Part shown: positions 6,872 to 49,950 of the stretch, one piece after another
How the letters are laid out: every line of letters starts with the position of its first letter
How positions within the stretch are numbered: position 1 is the first letter of the stretch
Assembly: GCA_003510435.1 (NCBI GenBank)
Contig: DOMK01000006.1
Location: 1-57,239, forward strand
Origin: Candidatus Magasanikiibacteriota bacterium
GTDB lineage: Bacteria > Patescibacteriota > Patescibacteriia > Magasanikbacterales > UBA922
Direction of reading: 5' to 3'
Length of the DNA: 57,239 bases
Notes under the pieces: generated by a model
Databases searched by the model: none
What the model saw: only the letters and a program-made list of their open reading frames with translations
What the model was told of the DNA's origin: nothing
Translations under genes and position numbers: made by a program

Positions 6872-6897
6872 ACACCTAAACAAAGGGTGTTTTTTTA
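6872..6897 (+). terminator. Rho-independent terminator (ACACC-loop-GGTGT + T-run)
   Basis: aaaACACCtaaacaaagGGTGTttttttt after gene 5511..6830. Confidence 0.5.
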
Positions 6898-6926
6898 TTA
6901 GTGTAAATTAGTGTGTAAGATTAGTG
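6897..6926 (+). promoter_or_regulatory. ATTAGTG x3 direct-repeat array abutting the TTGACA -35 of the GC-island gene
   Basis: attagtg (6897-6903), attagtg (6907-6913), attagtg (6920-6926); spacing 10 and 13 nt. TTGACA at 6931-6936. Confidence 0.6.
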
Positions 6927-6993
6927 TTCATTGACAAAATAATATTTTTTTGCTAATGTAATTTTGTAACCATCATAACGCCCTGGAGGGCAC

Positions 6994-7413
6994 ATGCTCG
7001 ACGTGAACGAATTCCTGTCGTGGTTCGAGGCGGGTCGCTTCAACAGCGTGCTCGCGTTCAAGGACGCGGGCATCGTGGGTAAGAGGGTTGAACAGGTGGC
7101 CCAGGCCATCAAAGCCATCCATGACGTCAACGGGACAACGTTCATGGAAATCATCAGCAACCTCGCTAGTCGGTTCTACGACATGGACGAAAGTGTCCCC
7201 GCCGACTCCGGCCTCGTCGGCGAAGGTGCCGTGGCCATAGCCGCGGCGTTCTCTACACTGTTCAACATGACAGACTTCCCCACCCTGGGAAAGCTCACTG
7301 GCATGCTCTGCGTGTTCGAGGAGGTACTCGAGCACGACTTCAAGCCGAGCGAACCCGGCTACTTGGCCGTAAAGACGGCCGTCGATCATCTGCGTGGACT
7401 TCTCTCCGCCTAG
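6994..7413 (+). CDS. Hypothetical acidic protein (139 aa) encoded in a ~62% GC island
   Basis: ATG preceded by SD ctGGAGGg (6983-6990). TTGACA (6931-6936)-N17-TAATGT (6954-6959) promoter-like signal upstream. Hairpin terminator downstream. Coding strand chosen over the overlapping antisense ORF 6973..7494 because of the RBS/promoter and protein-like composition. Confidence 0.5.
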   Translation: MLDVNEFLSWFEAGRFNSVLAFKDAGIVGKRVEQVAQAIKAIHDVNGTTFMEIISNLASRFYDMDESVPADSGLVGEGAVAIAAAFSTLFNMTDFPTLGKLTGMLCVFEEVLEHDFKPSEPGYLAVKTAVDHLRGLLSA

Positions 7414-7485
7414 CCCTCGCTCCGCTTCAGGAGCAACGTCCCAGGGCGAAGGTGGATTTCGATTCTGTACGTTCTTTTCTCGACT

Positions 7486-7557
7486 AAAAAACACCCGCGC
7501 CCGACTTAGTTCCGATTCATATCGAGATTAAGTTGGAGGATTTACGGGTGTTTTTTT
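7486..7557. terminator. Long hairpin terminator-like structure after the GC-island gene
   Basis: AAAAAACACCCG…(47-nt structured loop)…CGGGTGTTTTTTT. Confidence 0.5.
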
Positions 7558-14143: not shown

Positions 14144-14173
14144 CACTAATCTTTTACACTAATTCACACTAAT
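14144..14173 (-). promoter_or_regulatory. ATTAGTG x3 direct-repeat array ending 4 nt before the GT2 start codon (14139)
   Basis: cactaat units at 14144-14150, 14157-14163, 14167-14173 (minus-strand ATTAGTG). Confidence 0.6.
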
Positions 14174-35180: not shown

Positions 35181-35360
35181 TCACATTTCGTGACCGAGAG
35201 AATCTCTGGCCACGCGAGTCTGAAGGCTGTCCGCCTTCTTCTGCTTCGCGGCCTTGATCTCGGCCGCCCTTGCCTGTTTTGCCCTCTGCCGAGCCGAGGA
35301 GGGGGATTTGTACTTCCCATATCCCACCACGCCCGACTTCTTAGCCCCCTTCATACCCAT
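35181..35360 (-). CDS. Small Lys/Ala-rich basic ORF (~59 aa) in a high-GC island; could instead be a structured RNA
   Basis: ATG 35360 preceded by GGGGTG. GC ~58% in an AT-rich genome. TTGACA on the same strand ~55 nt upstream. The track start 35432 is GTG. Confidence 0.25.
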   Translation of the reverse strand: MGMKGAKKSGVVGYGKYKSPSSARQRAKQARAAEIKAAKQKKADSLQTRVARDSLGHEM

Positions 35361-35511
35361 AGACACCCCTGTGAGAAAATTCACAACAATATTCAACCAT
35401 AAAACTATCTCTCTTGTCAACAATTTCCCCACATTTCACCCACATATCACTATTTTTAACAGTTGATAAAAAACAGCAAATAGGCTAATATACTCATTAC
35501 CAAACAAAGAT

Positions 35512-39269: not shown

Positions 39270-39715
39270 ATTTGCAGGCGGAGTGTGCCTAAAAAGACAA
39301 AATTCTCCTCCGCCTACAAAAGGCCGGAGCGTCTAGCCGTCCCCCTTGTGGGAACTACTCTCGGGGGTGGGAGGGCACCCTTAAGAGAGACGGCTAGACG
39401 TCGGCCACAAGCGGCCAAGATGTTCGTTAGGTGGACGAACACCTTACAAAGCCAATCTTGCAAAACCAAGGAGGGAGGCTTACAAGACAGACTTCGGCGC
39501 CAAAAAGGCTCAGACCGCGCCATTGTTAGAGCCCCAGCCTACACCCCTGCACGATTCCGTGCTAAAAGTGTAATCACCACGTCCTCGGCACCCCAAGAAA
39601 ACCCTTTTCCGGGAGGTCGCGATGACGAACACCGCCTTGCCACCGTGCTGGCAGGTGGGTGTATCAAACCGGGGCCGAACCAAAAAGTACGGAACAAATA
39701 TAATTTATAATTATA
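39270..39715 (+). ncRNA. GC-rich structured RNA candidate (~440 nt); RNase P RNA is the leading guess, strand uncertain
   Basis: ~55% GC island with nested long stems (GGCCGgAGCGTCTAGCCGTC…GACGGCTAGACGtCGGCC; GTTCGTtaggtggACGAAC; CCACCgtgctggcagGTGGG). AAAAGGCCGGAGCG resembles the RNase P CR-I/P4 5' strand. The ORF 39285..39710 through it is implausible protein (Arg/Pro/Gly-rich, no RBS). Confidence 0.35.
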
Positions 39716-46417: not shown

Positions 46418-46846
46418 TTAGATTCCTAAATTAAACATTTCTTCAGCAATTTTATTACTATCTTTTTCTGTTTTTACTTTATAATTTTCCCAATTTTTCT
46501 GATCCCAAAGTTCGAGGCGGTTGTATAGACCAGCCACAACTACGTTCTTTTTGAGACCAGCAAAACTGCGAAGATATTCTGGCAACATTATTCTGCCTTG
46601 TTTATCAATATCTACGTCCATAGCACCAGCAAGCATCAACCGAGCAAATGCGCGAGTGTTGGCTTGAGAAAATGGTAAATTGGCTAATTTTTCTGCCAAC
46701 TTTTGCCATTCATTTTTGGTATACAAAAACAAACAGTTATCTAATCCTCTGGTCACAACTGCGCCTTTAATACTTGGACGAAACTTTTTTGGTATAGCCA
46801 ATCGTCCTTTTTCATCTAGATTGTGCTGGTATTCGCCAATAAACAT
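46418..46846 (-). CDS. mraZ: Transcriptional regulator MraZ
   Basis: MFIGEYQHNLDEKGRLAIP… two MraZ repeats. Three ATTAGTG direct repeats end 4 nt before the ATG. Confidence 0.9.
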   Translation of the reverse strand: MFIGEYQHNLDEKGRLAIPKKFRPSIKGAVVTRGLDNCLFLYTKNEWQKLAEKLANLPFSQANTRAFARLMLAGAMDVDIDKQGRIMLPEYLRSFAGLKKNVVVAGLYNRLELWDQKNWENYKVKTEKDSNKIAEEMFNLGI

Positions 46847-46850
46847 AGAT

Positions 46851-46879
46851 CACTAATCTTAACACTAATCGACACTAAT
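46851..46879 (-). promoter_or_regulatory. ATTAGTG x3 direct-repeat array ending 4 nt before the mraZ start codon; candidate MraZ operator
   Basis: cactaat units at 46851-46857, 46863-46869, 46873-46879. Minus strand reads ATTAGTGtcgATTAGTGttaagATTAGTGatct-ATG. Confidence 0.65.
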
Positions 46880-46921
46880 TTTTGATTTAACTTATAGAGG
46901 GACAGGCATTTCCTCCATAAA

Positions 46922-47299
46922 TTAATTTACTAATCTCTTATATCTAATTCCATCAGGTGTGATTAAAATTATTATTCCCAATTTTTTATTAGTAGCTTTT
47001 AAATATGTAAGAACTTGTTTTATATGCATCGGATAAAAATCATCTGCTACTTTTAATTCTACTACAATTTTATTTTCTACCAAAAAATCTAATGAGTAAC
47101 TCCCAACTTTCTTACCTTTATGAGTGACTCTTACTTTGTGTTCACGTTCAAAACTAAAACATTTTTTTGTCAATTCATCAGCATAAGCACGCTGATAAAA
47201 CAATTCGTAATGTCCGTATTTTAAACTGTTATAAACTGCATAAGCACAACCAACCAACTCATAACATTCATCTTTGTAGATTAAATCAACCCCGTTCAT
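46922..47299 (-). CDS. GxxExxY family protein (PD-(D/E)XK nuclease superfamily)
   Basis: 125 aa; GCAYAVYNSLKYGHYELFYQRAY signature. Flanked by inverted ATTAGTG arrays. Confidence 0.75.
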   Translation of the reverse strand: MNGVDLIYKDECYELVGCAYAVYNSLKYGHYELFYQRAYADELTKKCFSFEREHKVRVTHKGKKVGSYSLDFLVENKIVVELKVADDFYPMHIKQVLTYLKATNKKLGIIILITPDGIRYKRLVN

Positions 47300-47309
47300 A
47301 TCTCACCAC

Positions 47310-47392
47310 ATTAGTATAGGTTAGTGCTAAGATTAGTAGCTTCCAAATTATTCACACAATCACATTAGTGCAGATTAGTGTTAAGATTAGTG
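47310..47392 (+). promoter_or_regulatory. Two ATTAGTR x3 arrays upstream of GxxExxY gene 2, oriented towards the downstream + strand
   Basis: attagta/gttagtg/attagta (47310-47338) and attagtg/attagtg/attagtg (47364-47392). Confidence 0.55.
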
Positions 47393-47646
47393 GTATTCCC
47401 CATAAATCCCCACGTACTACCATTATACCCCACTTACACTACCTTTGCAACCCCAAAACCCCACTTATCCACAGCGTAAAGCTCCCTTCGGTCGCTACGT
47501 TGTAGACAGTCCTTCGCCCTCTGGACTACGGACTGTAAACTCTTATTTATTAAAAAAATAAATGACACCTCATTTTATAAATTTTTTGACAGAGTTAATT
47601 TTAAATAGTAATATTAATATATATAATTTTTAATTAAATATTCTAT

Positions 47647-47832
47647 ATGCAAAATGAAAGATGTGCTCGGGTAGTTCCAAGACAAGATGGTAAAAATAAA
47701 AAATGTGCCCATGGATCAGAAATAGGATGCAAAGAATGTCATAGAGCACACCCAGAAATATTAAAAAAAATTGACCCTAAATACAAAAATGAACCACCAA
47801 TTATGAGAGAAAGCGATCCATTTGAAGATTAA
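47647..47832 (+). CDS. Small Cys/His-rich (zinc-ribbon-like) hypothetical protein, 61 aa
   Basis: C-x13-C-x7-C-x2-C-H pattern. ATG start. Hairpin+T-run terminator at 47845-47877. Confidence 0.35.
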   Translation: MQNERCARVVPRQDGKNKKCAHGSEIGCKECHRAHPEILKKIDPKYKNEPPIMRESDPFED

Positions 47833-47844
47833 ATTATATATATC

Positions 47845-47877
47845 AAAAAATCCCCCACTAAACTGGAGGATTTTTTT
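47845..47877 (+). terminator. Rho-independent terminator after the small Cys-rich gene
   Basis: AAAAAATCCCCCActaaacTGGAGGATTTTTTT. Confidence 0.65.
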
Positions 47878-47985
47878 AAAAAAATTGTGTACAAGGAATT
47901 GACATTTAAAAAAAAATACGCTAGTGTATTTATAAGTTCGAAGTCAACCGCCATTCGTCAACCTCAAGAAAAAAAGGAGGGCACC

Positions 47986-48300
47986 ATGCCCGACCCCGCC
48001 GAAGTGACTGCTGTCGCCGTCGTACCCGAGCCGTTCGTGGCTCGTCACCCCGGGATCCTCGACCCCTGCGAATGTGGTGCCCCGCAGACGGTCCGCTCGT
48101 CGACGAGCGTGACCTACAAGTGCGGCCGCATCGACTCGACCGATCCCGCGAAGCAGGCCAGCGTCCCGTGCCCGAACGCGCCCGAGGCCGTCGAGGCCGA
48201 GCCCGTGAGCCTGGACGTCGCCGCCGACGCCCCCGTGCCCGAGCCCGTCGCCGCGCCCGTGGTCGAAGCGCCTGTGGTCGAAGCCGCGCCTGCCGCGTAG
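47986..48300 (+). CDS. Hypothetical protein (104 aa) in a ~68% GC island; Cys cluster then Pro/Ala/Val/Glu-rich tail
   Basis: Perfect SD AAGGAGG (47974-47980) 5 nt before the ATG. TTGACA (47899-47904)-N17-TAGTGT (47922-47927) promoter-like signal. Hairpin terminator at 48505-48532. The track ORF 47887 starts at GTG upstream. Confidence 0.45.
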   Translation: MPDPAEVTAVAVVPEPFVARHPGILDPCECGAPQTVRSSTSVTYKCGRIDSTDPAKQASVPCPNAPEAVEAEPVSLDVAADAPVPEPVAAPVVEAPVVEAAPAA

Positions 48301-48504
48301 CTGAAGGCCGAGGGAATTGGACCGACCGTCCTGCAGGAGGTTGGTCCAACGAGACAAAAATGCAGACGGAGGATACTTGGCGGTTGACTTGTGTCTGCAG
48401 GAATGGGGGGAGACGATGGATCGGGAGGGTCTATCGTCATTCGAGGCCGACAATTGTCTGCCTCCGTTCTTATGAAAATCAAATTTGGTTTTTAGAGGAA
48501 TATA

Positions 48505-48532
48505 AAAAATCTCGATTTAATCGGGATTTTTT
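48505..48532. terminator. Bidirectional hairpin terminator (GC-island gene on +, uvrC on -)
   Basis: AAAAAATCtCGATTtaaTCGgGATTTTTT. Confidence 0.6.
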
Positions 48533-48549
48533 ATTTGTTTAATTTTTGG

Positions 48550-49950
48550 TCAATTTCTTTTCAATTTCCGTAATGATCTCTGATATGTAATCGCAAATCT
48601 ATGAGCTTCATCTCTCACTTGGATTAACAAATTTTGATTTTCTTTTACCCATTCGGTAAATTCTCTTTTTTTATCAGTGGAATCTTTTCCAAAATCAGTG
48701 AAATCAATGTGGAATTCATTCTTTTTTCTATCCGGACCTTTAGCAATTCCCACAACGGGAATTTTAAATTTATTTGTTCTAATAATTTCCACGGCCTTAT
48801 TTACTTGCGAGACTCCCCCATCTACCAAAATTACATCAGGCAATTTCCAAATATCACCACTTTCTACTTTCAACTTTCTACTTTCAACTTGAGGAGCATG
48901 GCGCAGCCTGCGACGAATCACTTCTGCCATACAATCAACGTCACTTTGCCCTATTACAGTTTTTATTTTAAATTTTCTATATTGTGATTTGTTTGGATAA
49001 CCATTTTCAAATACCACCATACTACCAACCATACCAGTTGAACCAAGATTAGAAATATCATAACCTTCTATTCGAAGTTCTGAGTTCTGAGTTCTGAGTT
49101 CTGAGTTCTCCTGTAAAAAACTTTTATTCAACAAAGCAATGTCTTGTATTTTTTGTAAATTTTTTATTTGATCACGCAATCTTCCAGCTTCCTCAAACTC
49201 ATGAATTTTAGAAGACAATTTCATTTTCTTTTCCAAATCACGAATCAAACCTTTTTTATTACCACGCAAAAATTTTACTAATGGATTAATTACTTTCTTT
49301 TTATATTCAGACGAACTTATTTCCCCAGTACACACACCCAAACATTGTCCCATTTGACGATATAGACAAGGCTTACAAAGCTTACCAAGCTCACAAGGCT
49401 TACAATGTGATATATAAAATAATTTTCTTAAAAGTCCCATCATCTCGCGTGTTTTTAATCCTGGATACGGTCCAAAAATATGTTGAAACTGTTGTAATTG
49501 TTCTAGTTGTTGTAAATGTCTTTCACTTACAACATTTTTAACATCTACAACATTTGGAACATTACCAAGCTCATGCGCTCTAATCGTCTTAACTTGAGGG
49601 AAAACATCTTTTGTAATACAAATATAATTCCAACTCTTATCATCTTTCAAATCCACGTTATACTTTGGTTGATATTTTTTAATTGTATTCGCTTCCAAAA
49701 TAATCGCTTCCAAAACCGAATCAGTTTGTTTTATTTTTATATCCACCACCTCGTCGATCATAGCTTCGATAGGTCGCAATCCCCCTCCCTTTTTAAGGGA
49801 GGGCTGGGGTGGGTTCCGAAAATAACTCCTAACCCTGCTCTTCAAACTTGTCGCTTTACCAATATAAATCAACTCTTTCTGTTTATTATAGAAGAGATAA
49901 ATACCTGGTTCGTTGGGAAATGATTTGATTTTTTTTTCTAAATTAGCCAT
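48550..49950 (-). CDS. uvrC: Excinuclease ABC subunit C (short form lacking C-terminal HhH domain)
   Basis: GIY-YIG N-terminus (GIYLFYNKQKELIYIGKATSLKSRVRSYF), Cys-rich region, UvrC endonuclease core (…VRDEAHRFAITYQR…). Only 466 aa. Contains a heptanucleotide SSR and two small in-frame repeat insertions. Confidence 0.85.
   Translation of the reverse strand: MANLEKKIKSFPNEPGIYLFYNKQKELIYIGKATSLKSRVRSYFRNPPQPSLKKGGGLRPIEAMIDEVVDIKIKQTDSVLEAIILEANTIKKYQPKYNVDLKDDKSWNYICITKDVFPQVKTIRAHELGNVPNVVDVKNVVSERHLQQLEQLQQFQHIFGPYPGLKTREMMGLLRKLFYISHCKPCELGKLCKPCLYRQMGQCLGVCTGEISSSEYKKKVINPLVKFLRGNKKGLIRDLEKKMKLSSKIHEFEEAGRLRDQIKNLQKIQDIALLNKSFLQENSELRTQNSELRIEGYDISNLGSTGMVGSMVVFENGYPNKSQYRKFKIKTVIGQSDVDCMAEVIRRRLRHAPQVESRKLKVESGDIWKLPDVILVDGGVSQVNKAVEIIRTNKFKIPVVGIAKGPDRKKNEFHIDFTDFGKDSTDKKREFTEWVKENQNLLIQVRDEAHRFAITYQRSLRKLKRN
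48672..48709 (+). repeat. 38-bp AATCAGTGRAATC element, copy 4, in frame inside uvrC
   Basis: tatcagtggaatcttttccaaaatcagtgaaatcaatg; encodes HIDFTDFGKDSTDK on the minus strand. Confidence 0.7.
49076..49110. repeat. Heptanucleotide SSR (AGTTCTG)x5 inside uvrC (in frame as ELRTQNS repeats)
   Basis: agttctgagttctgagttctgagttctgagttctc. Confidence 0.85.

What the first reader, a model, noticed from the sequence alone, without database searches (positions are those of the whole stretch)
47899..48540. Second high-GC island: strongly SD-driven 104-aa Cys-cluster/Pro-Ala-rich protein followed by a GC-rich structured 3' region
ATG 47986 is preceded by a perfect AAGGAGG at optimal spacing and by TTGACA-N17-TAGTGT. 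The protein has a C-x-C…C…C-P-C cluster, then a PVPEPVAAPVVEAPVVEAAPAA tail. GC is ~68%. The 180 nt after the stop (48301-48480) remain GC-rich and contain long stems (GGACCgaccgtcctgcaggaggttGGTCC; GACGATGGATCgggaGGGTCTATCGTC) before a bidirectional terminator. That could be a cis-regulatory or sRNA element. Upstream lie a small zinc-ribbon-like gene (47647..47832), a perfect DnaA-box-like TTATCCACA (47468-47476) and ATTAGTG arrays. The whole 47300-48540 stretch looks like an accessory cargo zone next to GxxExxY gene 2.
Basis: partly seen in the sequence, partly recalled or inferred. Interest (0 to 1): 0.6.

Follow-up and report, generated by a model that had tools for sequence, protein, structure and literature searches.

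The report
GC-rich orphan gene, structured 3' RNA
In a very AT-rich, tiny-celled groundwater bacterium, a small stand-alone gene with the codon usage of a GC-rich organism carries a conserved folded RNA tail that base-pairs back to the very start of its own message; the gene is real and kept in three distant relatives, but neither the protein nor the RNA matches any known family.

Summary
The island is real. Independent assemblies span both junctions. It is a self-contained transcription unit: TTGACA-N17-TAGTGT promoter, 5'UTR, AAGGAGG, a 104-codon ORF (GC 0.73, GC3 0.87), a ~235-nt multi-hairpin 3'UTR and a bidirectional terminator shared with uvrC.

It is not recent foreign cargo. The same unit sits between the mraZ promoter and uvrC in three deeply diverged CPR lineages whose synonymous sites are saturated. 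All three ORFs keep GC3 0.87-0.89 next to genes with GC3 0.26-0.40.

The proteins share only an acidic Ala/Pro/Glu tail. They are predicted disordered and have no detectable relatives among about 15 billion proteins.

The 3' region is a conserved sense-strand RNA:
- A hairpin stem covaries completely (7/7 pairs).
- Its loop holds an invariant box, an exact 13-nt complement of the extreme 5' end of the transcript.
- The only changes in that long-range helix keep G-U pairs.
- There is no Rfam match.

Best reading: an mRNA for a small acidic protein whose 5' end is clamped to its 3'UTR, controlling stability or translation. Why the GC-rich codons persist is unexplained. Similar GC-rich, SD-led orphan genes recur in related genomes, where native genes lack SD sequences.

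The parts
47899..47927 (+). Promoter: -35 TTGACA (47899-47904), 17-nt spacer, -10 TAGTGT (47922-47927)
   Evidence: Read. The same TTGACA-N17-TAGTGT/TAGTTT is present in L084/L086 and L068. The consensus scanner does not call it because the -10 hexamer matches only 3 of 6 positions.
47941..47953 (+). 5' box AAGTCAACCGCCA. It starts about 6-7 nt from the inferred transcription start and forms the 5' arm of long-range helix P1.
   Evidence: It is an exact 13-nt complement of 48378-48390. No shuffle out of 100 reached 13 nt; the longest was 11. P1 forms in the MFE fold of the whole transcript. Across three lineages, 11 pairs are 100% paired and the only two changes give G-U pairs.
47974..47980 (+). 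Shine-Dalgarno AAGGAGG, 5 nt before the ATG
   Evidence: SD-like sequences are also present in relatives (GGGGGA, AGAGG). Only 3 of 33 long native ORFs in the window have an SD-like motif.
47986..48300 (+). ORF of 104 aa: four Cys (28, 30, 46, 62), then an acidic Ala/Pro/Val/Glu tail. Net charge is -10. GC is 0.73 and GC3 is 0.87.
   Evidence: CAI is 0.34 against native genes at 0.63-0.79. The ORF RNA shows no excess structure (z = 0.00). AlphaFold gives pLDDT 48 and pTM 0.21, consistent with disorder. There is no relative beyond the three lineages. There is no Pfam, PHROG, PADLOC or NCBIfam hit.
48317..48349 (+). H1: GC-rich hairpin just after the stop codon (TTGGACCGACCG...CGGTTGGTCCAA)
   Evidence: Relatives also have hairpins of different sequence just after the stop codon.
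48361..48399 (+). P2 hairpin: stem TGCAGAC (48361-48367) with GTCTGCA (48393-48399). Its 25-nt loop carries the 3' box TGGCGGTTGACTT (48378-48390).
   Evidence: The stem arms are unrelated in sequence in the three lineages yet paired: 7, 9 and 6 bp, with 7 of 7 aligned pairs showing changes on both sides. The box core GGCGGTTGAC is invariant.
48405..48411 (+). G-rich, SD-like linker: GGGGGGA here, GGGGGGATGGAGGGA in L084 and GGGAGGGATGGAGGGA in L068
   Evidence: In all three lineages it can pair with the CCUCC-bearing 3' arm of P4 as an alternative helix. This alternative helix is the MFE fold in L084 and L068.
48412..48438 (+). P3 hairpin: GACGATGGATC, loop gggag, GGTCTATCGTC
   Evidence: Of 11 pairs, one has a compensatory change and two have wobble changes. 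In L068 the outer pairs are lost, and 84.8% of cells are paired overall.
48443..48465 (+). P4 hairpin GAGGCCGACA/TGTCTGCCTC. Its 3' arm holds the anti-SD-like CCUCC (48461-48465), followed by the conserved CGTTC.
   Evidence: Of 10 pairs, 93.3% of cells are paired, with four wobble-type changes and one compensatory change.
48467..48500 (+). P5: AU-rich hairpin. The 5' arm starts at the conserved GUUC(C/U) and the 3' arm is the conserved UUUAG(U/A)GGAA.
   Evidence: MFE folds. The conserved ends are seen. The C-to-U change in the window gives a U-G pair, by my own reading of the sequences.
48502..48534 (.). Bidirectional intrinsic terminator (A-tract, 15-bp stem, T-tract), shared with the convergent uvrC gene (48550-49950, minus strand)

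Best explanation
The region 47899-48534 is one autonomous, lineage-conserved transcription unit. It produces an mRNA for a small, highly acidic, probably disordered protein.

The mRNA is built to pair with itself over a long distance. A box a few nucleotides from its 5' end pairs with the apical loop of a hairpin (P2) in a conserved 3'UTR of about 235 nt (H1, P2, G-rich linker, P3, P4, P5, terminator). This closes the message into a circle.

Inferred mechanism:
- The 5'-terminal helix shields the 5' end from 5'-end-dependent RNases.
- It also places the 3' domain next to the ribosome-binding site. That domain can switch between two folds, P3+P4 or G-rich:CCUCC.
- Together these would set the stability and translation of a GC-rich message that, unlike the native SD-less genes, depends on a strong SD.

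Shown here: the unit's anatomy, its conservation, the RNA pairings and the strand.
Inferred: translation of the ORF, and the stabilising or translational role of the clamp.
Unexplained: why GC-rich codons are maintained.
For: - The island is real in several independent assemblies.
- A homologous unit lies at the same place, between the mraZ promoter and uvrC, in L068 and in L084/L086. It shares the promoter, 5'UTR box and 3' domain.
- P1: the complement is an exact 13 nt in the window (0 of 100 shuffles). It is 100% paired in three lineages, and both substitutions are wobble-preserving. It appears in the MFE folds of the window and L084 transcripts.
- P2 has 7 of 7 compensatory pairs. The whole structure has 93.2% of cells paired, against 27-47% when partners are slid. 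Nine pairs change on both sides, a count no shuffle out of 500 reached.
- The sense strand folds far better than the antisense strand: z = -5.05, -4.96 and -3.70 against -2.0, -1.75 and -1.43.
- Coding evidence: GC3 > GC1 > GC2 in all three ORFs. The SD+ATG is conserved. L084 and L086 differ by a 51-nt length difference (17 codons) that keeps the frame. The tail matches between lineages are in frame. The ORF RNA is no more structured than shuffles.
- Native genes lack SD sequences (3 of 33).
- From established knowledge, cited from memory: 5'-terminal stem structures stabilise bacterial mRNAs (ompA, aprE and ermC leaders).
Against: - Only three independent lineages exist, so the covariation statistics are thin. 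P1 is mostly invariant rather than covarying.
- L068's MFE fold does not form P1.
- The paired 5' box lies upstream of the SD and does not occlude it, so a translational effect is not obvious.
- No expression, end-mapping or peptide data were available.
- The N-terminal halves of the three proteins are not alignable. The 'same gene' claim therefore rests on position, flanks and the low-complexity tail.
- The invariance of the 3' box suggests it may have another partner, a protein or a different RNA, that this model does not name.
Confidence: 0.55

Rival explanations
1. Recent horizontally acquired cargo. On this view a small gene, with its own SD and terminator hairpins, came from a high-GC donor (host, phage or plasmid) and landed behind a native promoter. 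The 3' structure would be just the donor's intergenic hairpins.
For: - Codon usage is that of a 65-72% GC organism: GC3 is 0.87 and CAI is 0.34 against native genes at 0.63-0.79.
- The gene has an SD in a genome whose own genes lack one.
- The GC jump starts at the SD and ends before the AT-rich terminator.
- The uvrC-mraZ gap is an insertion hot spot.
- Other GC-rich, SD-led orphan ORFs occur in related genomes.
Against: - The same unit lies at the same site in three lineages whose four-fold sites in uvrC and mraZ are mostly at chance identity. A neutral import would have ameliorated, yet GC3 is 0.87-0.89 in all three.
- No homologue from any GC-rich organism turned up in 5.8 billion clusters, 1.84 billion representatives, viral contigs, phages or plasmids.
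- The 3' domain covaries, so it is under selection in these lineages.
- No mobility gene is adjacent.
Confidence: 0.13
2. The conserved 3' domain is the functional product. It would be a stable 3'UTR-derived or independently made small RNA, or a protein- or ribosome-binding RNA. Its invariant loop box and G-rich SD-like stretch would act in trans, and the ORF upstream would be secondary.
For: - The 3' box core GGCGGTTGAC is invariant while the surrounding stems changed completely. That is typical of a seed or binding site.
- The 3' domain has the strongest structure signal: z = -7.66 and -5.05.
- It ends at an intrinsic terminator, as 3'UTR-derived sRNAs do.
- The protein sequence is barely conserved.
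Against: - The only conserved complement of the box found in 1.23 Mb of related DNA is the unit's own 5'UTR.
- No promoter-like site lies between the stop codon and P2.
- The SD-led ORF with coding periodicity is kept in all three lineages.
- This reading is compatible with the main model rather than exclusive of it.
Confidence: 0.17
3. DNA-level element. The two 13-bp boxes would be inverted repeats flanking an invertible or exchangeable cassette. That would explain why the ORF between them differs so much between lineages.
For: - Perfect 13-bp inverted repeats flank the SD, ORF and H1.
- The ORFs between conserved flanks are not alignable at their N-termini.
- A long antisense ORF spans the segment.
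Against: - In L084 and L068 the repeats differ by transitions that are mismatches in DNA but G-U pairs in sense-strand RNA.
- No recombinase gene is nearby.
- All assemblies of each lineage show one orientation.
- Inversion would leave the promoter facing a sequence with no start site, by my own reading of the sequence.
Confidence: 0.04
4. The ORF is not translated. The whole 600-nt transcript would be a non-coding RNA, and the open frame a by-product of GC-richness, since GC-rich sequence has few stop codons.
For: - All six frames carry long ORFs here.
- Gene callers chose a different frame, the 156-aa ORF.
- There is no protein homology and the model is disordered.
Against: - A GC3 > GC1 > GC2 periodicity of 0.77/0.56/0.87 is not expected of a non-coding RNA, and it recurs in the SD-led frame in all three lineages.
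- The ORF segments fold no better than shuffles (z = 0.0, +0.67, -0.81).
- The L084/L086 length difference keeps the frame, and tail similarities between lineages are in frame.
Confidence: 0.08
5. Assembly or binning artefact: a chimeric join of a GC-rich fragment into an AT-rich contig.
For: The GC switch is abrupt.
Against: - Both junctions are spanned in assemblies from different runs and pipelines: ENA MEGAHIT, JGI and Logan.
- Homologous units are embedded in contigs of up to 617 kb in other lineages.
Confidence: 0.01

Closest known systems
hok/sok-type mRNAs with fold-back inhibition (5' tac element pairing with 3' fbi element) (from memory)
   Same: It is a small-protein mRNA whose extreme 5' end pairs with a sequence near its 3' end. 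That gives a closed, presumably stable and translationally tuned molecule.
   Different: The product is acidic and disordered, not a roughly 50-aa hydrophobic toxin. No antisense RNA gene or mok-like overlapping frame was seen. The 3' partner is a hairpin loop about 150 nt before the 3' end, not the 3' terminus. The phylum also differs (CPR against Enterobacteria).
icaR mRNA of Staphylococcus aureus and B. subtilis hbs: 5'UTR-3'UTR pairing that controls translation or decay (from memory)
   Same: It shows cis pairing between the two UTRs of one bacterial mRNA. A C-rich anti-SD-like motif (CCUCC) is present in the 3'UTR.
   Different: Here the conserved long-range helix involves a box upstream of the SD, not the SD itself. 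The CCUCC is paired inside the 3' domain in both predicted folds.
3' cap-independent translation elements of plant RNA viruses, which use a kissing loop to the 5'UTR (from memory)
   Same: The apical loop of a structured 3' element is complementary to the 5'UTR. The 3' element carries sequences that could bind the translation machinery (SD-like G-rich stretch).
   Different: Those are eukaryotic viral RNAs that bind eIF4 factors. Nothing here shows ribosome binding. The analogy is in architecture only.
3'UTR-derived small RNAs sharing the mRNA's terminator, such as CpxQ, SroC and DapZ (from memory)
   Same: A conserved structured domain lies between the stop codon and an intrinsic terminator, with an invariant single-stranded box.
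   Different: The only conserved complement found is the unit's own 5'UTR. Processing was not tested.
Compositionally deviant genomic islets / ORFan genes acquired by horizontal transfer
   Same: GC and codon usage are far from the host genome, there are no homologues, and the location is a variable intergenic hot spot.
   Different: The deviation is towards GC in an AT-rich genome. It persists across lineages with saturated divergence. No donor homologue or mobility gene was found.
Rfam 15 families
   Same: None.
   Different: No family reaches its gathering score anywhere in the window. At E <= 10 over 47300-48600, only chance terminator-like hits appear.

Membership tests
Any Rfam 15 RNA family | Match to a covariance model at or above its gathering score | tested here: not met
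   No family reaches its gathering score in the window. At E <= 10 over 47300-48600, only terminator-like chance hits far below gathering appear.
tmRNA (considered because of 5'-3' end pairing and an internal ORF ending in Ala-Ala) | tRNA-like domain with an acceptor stem and T-arm, plus a short tag ORF without SD or ATG | tested here: not met
   ARAGORN finds no tmRNA or tRNA in the window. The ORF is 104 codons long with an SD and an ATG.
hok/sok-like type I toxin-antitoxin | Small hydrophobic membrane toxin | tested here: not met
   The product has a net charge of -10 and is rich in Ala, Pro, Val and Glu. It is predicted to be disordered.
hok/sok-like type I toxin-antitoxin | Long-range pairing of the mRNA's 5' end with its 3' region | tested here: met
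   P1 is 13 bp, is conserved in three lineages and forms in MFE folds.
hok/sok-like type I toxin-antitoxin | Cis-encoded antisense RNA gene overlapping the 5' region | tested here: inconclusive
   No minus-strand promoter-like site was called within 47930-48000, but the scan is consensus-only.
Recently transferred genomic island | Composition deviating from the host genome | tested here: met
   GC is 0.73 against 0.34. CAI is 0.34 against 0.63-0.79 for native genes.
Recently transferred genomic island | Homologues in a plausible donor lineage | tested here: not met
   The only relatives are the two other CPR lineages. No phage, plasmid or viral match was found.
Recently transferred genomic island | Absent from relatives, or present only in close strains | tested here: not met
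   The unit is present at the same site in lineages with UvrC identity of 57-64% by tblastn (66-70% by global alignment) and saturated four-fold sites. It is absent from the other syntenic loci examined.
Integron gene cassette | attC recombination site at the 3' end and an integrase / attI nearby; cassettes lack their own promoter | tested here: not met
   The unit has its own conserved promoter. The neighbours are uvrC, a 61-aa Zn-ribbon-like ORF, GxxExxY and mraZ, with no integrase. By my own reading, no GTTRRRY core lies at the boundaries. A formal attC model was not run.
Retron (msr-msd) | Reverse transcriptase gene adjacent to an RNA with terminal inverted repeats | tested here: not met
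   Inverted boxes exist, but no RT gene is adjacent in the window or in relatives.
3'UTR-derived sRNA | A discrete stable RNA processed from, or initiated within, the mRNA 3' end | not testable with these tools
   This needs RNA-seq or Northern data. Only the structure and the terminator were shown.

The most novel reading that the evidence does not exclude
The unit, and the wider set of GC-rich, SD-led orphan genes in these AT-rich, SD-poor CPR genomes, could be a host-coupled gene class. Their codon usage matches GC-rich host bacteria rather than the symbiont.

A 2026 preprint (bioRxiv 10.64898/2026.06.21.733656) reports that Patescibacteria import host RNA and have codon usage 'complementary' to their GC-rich hosts. 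Against that background, such genes could be translated efficiently only when host-derived translation components such as tRNAs are present. That would make them a codon-gated sensor of attachment. Alternatively, they could be meant for expression inside the host.

On this reading the self-clamped, RNase-resistant mRNA would be a stored message. My evidence does not exclude this:
- GC3 is held at 0.87-0.89 despite saturated divergence.
- CAI is 0.31-0.39 against 0.63-0.79 for native genes.
- No donor homologue was found.

Nothing tests it directly.
Probability: 0.06. Interest if true: 0.9.

Novelty: new variant of a known kind. Interest (0 to 1): 0.6.

Why it matters
- **A new RNA element.** It adds a conserved RNA structure with covariation support, absent from Rfam, to a phylum (CPR/Patescibacteria) where almost no cis-regulatory RNAs are described. 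Its architecture, a 3' hairpin loop clamping the 5' end of its own mRNA, is rare in bacteria.
- **A compositional paradox.** A gene has kept about 88% GC at third codon positions in genomes whose other genes have about 30%, across lineages with saturated synonymous divergence. Either strong selection acts on synonymous sites or an unknown process renews the sequence.
- **A wider pattern.** Similar GC-rich, Shine-Dalgarno-led orphan genes recur in related genomes whose native genes lack SD sequences. This may mark a distinct expression class in episymbiotic bacteria, and it is testable with existing aquifer metatranscriptomes and metaproteomes.
- **An annotation problem.** On every contig examined, gene callers either picked another frame or a different start codon for this unit. 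Such genes are therefore mis-annotated in public data.

Tried and rejected
- **Known RNA families.** Rfam at gathering and at E <= 10, and ARAGORN, found nothing.
- **Protein homology.** The word-indexed search of 5.8 billion clusters returned only the query. The exhaustive phmmer over 1.84 billion representatives gave one extra hit, P0002. It is a repeat-inflated artefact, with 5 weak stretches at 28% identity. A profile of the four family members recovered only the same three lineages. Pfam, PHROGs, PADLOC and NCBIfam gave nothing.
- **Structure prediction.** The island protein scored pLDDT 48 and the first-island protein 49.7. Both are too poor for fold search, so none was run.
- **Phage, plasmid or viral origin.** No matches except low-complexity GC hits in plasmids.
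- **ATTAGTG arrays as MraZ boxes controlling the islands.** I held this idea at first and dropped it. The conserved GTGGGGA-N5-GGGGAA repeats beside the TATAAT of the mraZ promoter fit the canonical boxes better. L084 has ATCTGTG arrays instead, and the arrays flank GxxExxY genes.
- **5'-3' complementarity as a general feature of GC-rich units.** It is specific to this family. Other units match at chance level; the best was 10 nt, reached by 3 of 100 shuffles.
- **GC-richness as a requirement for RNA structure in the ORF.** ORF-only z-scores are about 0.
- **Shared GGAGGGCAC before the ATG of islands 1 and 2.** The motif occurs about as often as chance predicts: 4 matches against 2.9 expected when one mismatch is allowed.
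- **More family members.** nhmmer over 1.23 Mb of related loci found none.
- **16S 3' end, to check the anti-SD.** It is not present in any DNA held.
- **Literature.** No paper on Magasanikbacteria GC islands was found.
Full report
**Setting.** The window is an AT-rich chromosome segment (GC 0.344) of a CPR/Patescibacteria bacterium. Around the finding it carries rsmH, mraZ, a GxxExxY/PDDEXK_3 gene, uvrC and uvrA. Contigs carrying identical proteins come from groundwater metagenomes. The public genomes that show the same array-plus-promoter and GC-rich-ORF architecture are labelled Magasanikbacteria. No tRNA, tmRNA or Rfam family was detected in the 57 kb.

- GC rises from 0.33 to 0.73 exactly over ORF 47986-48300 and stays at 0.54 to 48480.
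- Minor errors: the cysteines are C28, C30, C46 and C62 (C-P-N, not C-P-C), and TTATCCACA is at 47465-47473.
- The island is not a chimera. A 966-nt contig from another assembly spans both junctions with one mismatch. ENA, JGI and Logan contigs that carry the identical MraZ protein show the same gene order, and the ENA contig was checked as identical over 46801-48800.

**Is the ORF a gene?**
- Codon-position GC is 0.77/0.56/0.87 in the frame of the SD-led ATG. This is the signature of real coding sequence in a high-GC style.
- Its codon adaptation to the window's own genes is 0.34, against 0.63-0.79 for native genes. The neighbouring Zn-ribbon-like ORF (0.77) and GxxExxY (0.72) are native-like.
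- Only 3 of 33 long native ORFs have any SD-like motif, so the perfect SD is itself unusual here.
- The ORF RNA is no more structured than shuffles (z = 0.00), unlike the 3' region.
- The protein has no relative apart from the two lineages described below. This held for the word-indexed search of 5.8 billion clusters, the exhaustive phmmer of 1.84 billion representatives (whose single extra hit is a repeat artefact), Pfam, PHROGs, PADLOC and NCBIfam, and viral contigs, phages and plasmids.
- AlphaFold gives pLDDT 48, consistent with disorder.

**The turning point: relatives.** I fetched 80 metagenome loci with UvrC (47-67% identity).
- The order uvrA-uvrC-gap-mraZ-rsmH is conserved in about 25 of them.
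- The gap ranges from 171 nt to 2.6 kb, so it is a hot spot for small inserted genes.
- In L068 and in L084/L086 the gap holds a GC 0.7-0.8 island at the same position and orientation as in the window.
- It is the same unit. The promoter (TTGACA-N17-TAGTGT or TAGTTT), a 5'UTR box (AGTCRACYGCCA), an SD-led ORF of 107-130 codons and a 3' domain ending in a terminator next to uvrC are all recognisably homologous.
- A profile search with the four proteins recovered only these lineages (P0003, P0004). They sit on many groundwater contigs of up to 617 kb, always between mraZ and uvrC.
- Within each lineage the compared copies are identical or differ by one or two bases, apart from a run of N in one contig.

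**How old is it?**
- Between the three lineages, MraZ is 80-84% and UvrC 66-70% identical in protein.
- Four-fold degenerate sites of uvrC match at 26-36%, against about 30% expected from composition. Those of mraZ match at 30-51%. Synonymous divergence is therefore largely saturated.
- Flanking genes have GC3 of 0.26-0.40, whereas the three unit ORFs have GC3 of 0.87, 0.87 and 0.89.
- A neutral import would have ameliorated, and no donor was found. So either GC at synonymous sites is maintained, or the ORF is renewed by an unknown process. I could not decide between these.
- The proteins are not alignable in their N-terminal halves. They share an acidic Ala/Pro/Glu tail (net charge -10 to -21) whose DNA matches are in frame. 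L084 and L086 differ by a 51-nt length difference (17 codons) that keeps the frame.

**The RNA.**
- *Strand:* the sense strand folds at z = -5.05, -4.96 and -3.70 in the three lineages, against -2.0, -1.75 and -1.43 for the antisense strand.
- *P2:* this hairpin has stems of unrelated sequence in the three lineages (TGCAGAC, CTCGTAAAT, ATCGCC), each perfectly paired. Its loop presents an invariant GGCGGTTGAC.
- *P1:* in the window the loop box TGGCGGTTGACTT (48378-48390) is the exact 13-nt complement of AAGTCAACCGCCA (47941-47953). No shuffle out of 100 gave 13 nt. The 5' box starts only 2-7 nt from the inferred transcription start in all three lineages, by my reading.
- *Wobble changes:* the two substitutions seen in the 5' box (A to G in L084, C to U in L068) both keep pairing as G-U. 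This fits RNA on the sense strand and argues against a DNA inverted repeat.
- *Whole-transcript folds:* the MFE folds of the window and L084 transcripts form this helix and enclose the ORF. L068's does not.
- *Counted on a segment alignment:* 93.2% of cells pair, against 27-47% when partners are slid. Nine pairs change on both sides, a count no shuffle out of 500 reached. P2 is 7 of 7 compensatory, P1 is 100% paired, and P3 and P4 show wobble and single compensatory changes. With only three lineages, these numbers are indicative rather than definitive.
- *Alternative fold:* a G-rich SD-like stretch precedes P3. In all three lineages it can pair with the CCUCC-bearing 3' arm of P4. That alternative is the MFE fold in L084 and L068, while P3+P4 is the MFE fold in the window.
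- *P5:* an AU-rich hairpin links the conserved CGUUC(C/U) to the conserved UUUAGWGGAA before the terminator.

**Mechanism.** I commit to the following, with confidence 0.55. The unit makes an mRNA for a small acidic protein. The mRNA's 5' end is clamped to the loop of a 3'UTR hairpin.
- Established knowledge (from memory) says that 5'-terminal helices protect bacterial mRNAs from 5'-end-dependent decay. Cis 5'-3' UTR pairing is also known to tune translation or decay (hok fbi, icaR, hbs).
- The clamp would also bring a bistable 3' domain carrying SD-like and anti-SD-like sequences next to the ribosome-binding site. That message needs a strong SD, unlike its neighbours.
- The pairings, the strand and the conservation are shown. 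The effects on stability and translation are inferred.

**Rivals.**
- Recent HGT cargo: 0.13.
- The 3' domain as the true product, acting in trans: 0.17. This is partly compatible with the main model.
- An invertible or exchangeable DNA cassette: 0.04.
- A wholly non-coding transcript: 0.08.
- An assembly artefact: 0.01.

**A wider pattern.**
- The window's first island (6994-7413, GC3 0.79) and a third small unit (35181-35360, minus strand) share the design of promoter, SD-led GC-rich orphan ORF and GC-rich 3' stretch. A terminator hairpin was checked only for the first.
- Scanning 872 kb of low-GC CPR loci found about 15 distinct ORFs of this kind. Eight of them, plus one from L105 and the window's 59-aa ORF, were scanned against Pfam, and none had a credible family.
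- They do not share the 5'-3' clamp.
- A 2026 preprint reports that Patescibacteria import RNA from GC-rich hosts and have codon usage 'complementary' to them. Genes with host-like codons inside the symbiont are therefore conspicuous.
- The host-coupled reading in the novel case is speculative (0.06) but not excluded.

**Comparison with known systems and verdict.** The unit fails membership of every known family I considered: Rfam families, tmRNA, hok-like type I toxin-antitoxin, integron cassette, retron and recent island. It works most like the known cis 5'-3' UTR interactions, with a distinct loop-to-5'-end architecture. I rate it a new variant of a known kind, with interest 0.6.

Noticed in passing
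window 6897-6926(+), 14144-14173(-), 46851-46879(-), 47364-47392(+); degenerate copy 47310-47338(+); loci L008-L066: The triple array ATTAGTG-N3-ATTAGTG-N5/6-ATTAGTG is not local. An exact-pattern scan of one genome per species gave 59 stretches, where about 0.5 would be expected by chance by my estimate. Nearly all are in CPR MAGs, and one MAG holds 18. The array points at a downstream gene and often ends 4-60 nt before its ATG. Examples are the S19, L24, L2, SSB, YebC, mraZ and glycosyltransferase genes. Its function is unknown. It could be an operator, a promoter element or an element end. L084 carries ATCTGTG arrays in the same position.
   Followed up: partly
window 46851-47392; L058 3098-3657; L010 4130-4531; L036 384-780: GxxExxY (TIGR04256/PDDEXK_3) genes sit directly next to ATTAGTG arrays. 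In the window and in L058 the gene is flanked by arrays in inverted orientation and is inserted between the mraZ promoter and mraZ. This looks like a mobile cassette, or a nuclease with its own binding sites.
   Followed up: partly
window 47395-47473 (minus strand); same region in L067, L068, L069, L084, L105: The C-rich stretch is the conserved mraZ (dcw) promoter read on the other strand. It has TTGCAA-N17-TATAAT (47450-47422) and GTGGGGA-N5-GGGGAA repeats that resemble canonical MraZ boxes (from memory). A perfect DnaA-box-like TGTGGATAA lies about 15 nt upstream of the -35 and is conserved in all relatives examined.
   Followed up: partly
window 6932-7556: The first GC island has the same design. 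An ATTAGTG array abuts a TTGACA-N17-TAATGT promoter, followed by GGAGG and a 139-aa all-helical orphan ORF (GC3 0.79, CAI 0.31). A structured 3' stretch (z = -3.7) and a terminator complete it. The protein has no homologue at all and is not even on record in the protein collection. L052 has the same array-promoter junction with a different GC-rich ORF.
   Followed up: partly
window 35181-35425 (minus strand): A third small GC-rich unit has a TTGACA promoter and a 59-aa basic Lys/Ala-rich ORF (GC 0.59, GC3 0.72). A GC-rich 3' stretch of about 190 nt follows. The unit lies in the 670-nt divergent gap between a glycosyltransferase-like gene and dnaB.
   Followed up: no
window 39270-39690: This 420-nt stretch has GC of about 0.5-0.6 and no periodic ORF. 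It lies between two terminator-like hairpins. It looks like a structured non-coding RNA but matches no Rfam family even at E <= 1.
   Followed up: partly
whole window: Native genes essentially lack Shine-Dalgarno sequences (3 of 33 long ORFs), whereas every GC-rich orphan ORF has a strong one. There is no tRNA gene in 57 kb.
   Followed up: partly
L067-L146 (uvrC-mraZ gap): The gap between uvrC and mraZ varies from 171 nt to 2.6 kb among relatives and holds different small units. These include a STAS-domain-like gene (my reading of the sequence) in L069, a GC-richer 96-aa orphan in L105, GxxExxY in L081 and several promoter-terminator units without clear ORFs in L067.
   Followed up: partly
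window 47474-47545; L084 8240-8340: Right after TTATCCACA both lineages have AGCGTAAA followed by GC-rich hairpins, in the window ending in a T-rich stretch. This may be a small transcript or terminator divergent from the mraZ promoter.
   Followed up: no
window 47647-47832: The 61-aa Zn-ribbon-like ORF (C6, C20, C28, C31) has native composition and its own TTGACA-N17-TAATAT promoter and terminator. It was not found in any of the 80 related loci, so it is lineage-specific. Its only hit is a marginal PADLOC E1-E2 match (E = 2.8e-4).
   Followed up: partly
L002/L003 8305-8775; P0003; P0004: On every contig examined, public gene calls mis-annotate the unit. In the window's lineage the +2 frame (156 aa) was called. 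In the other two lineages a truncated start (93 aa) or an over-extended start (148 aa) was chosen.
   Followed up: yes
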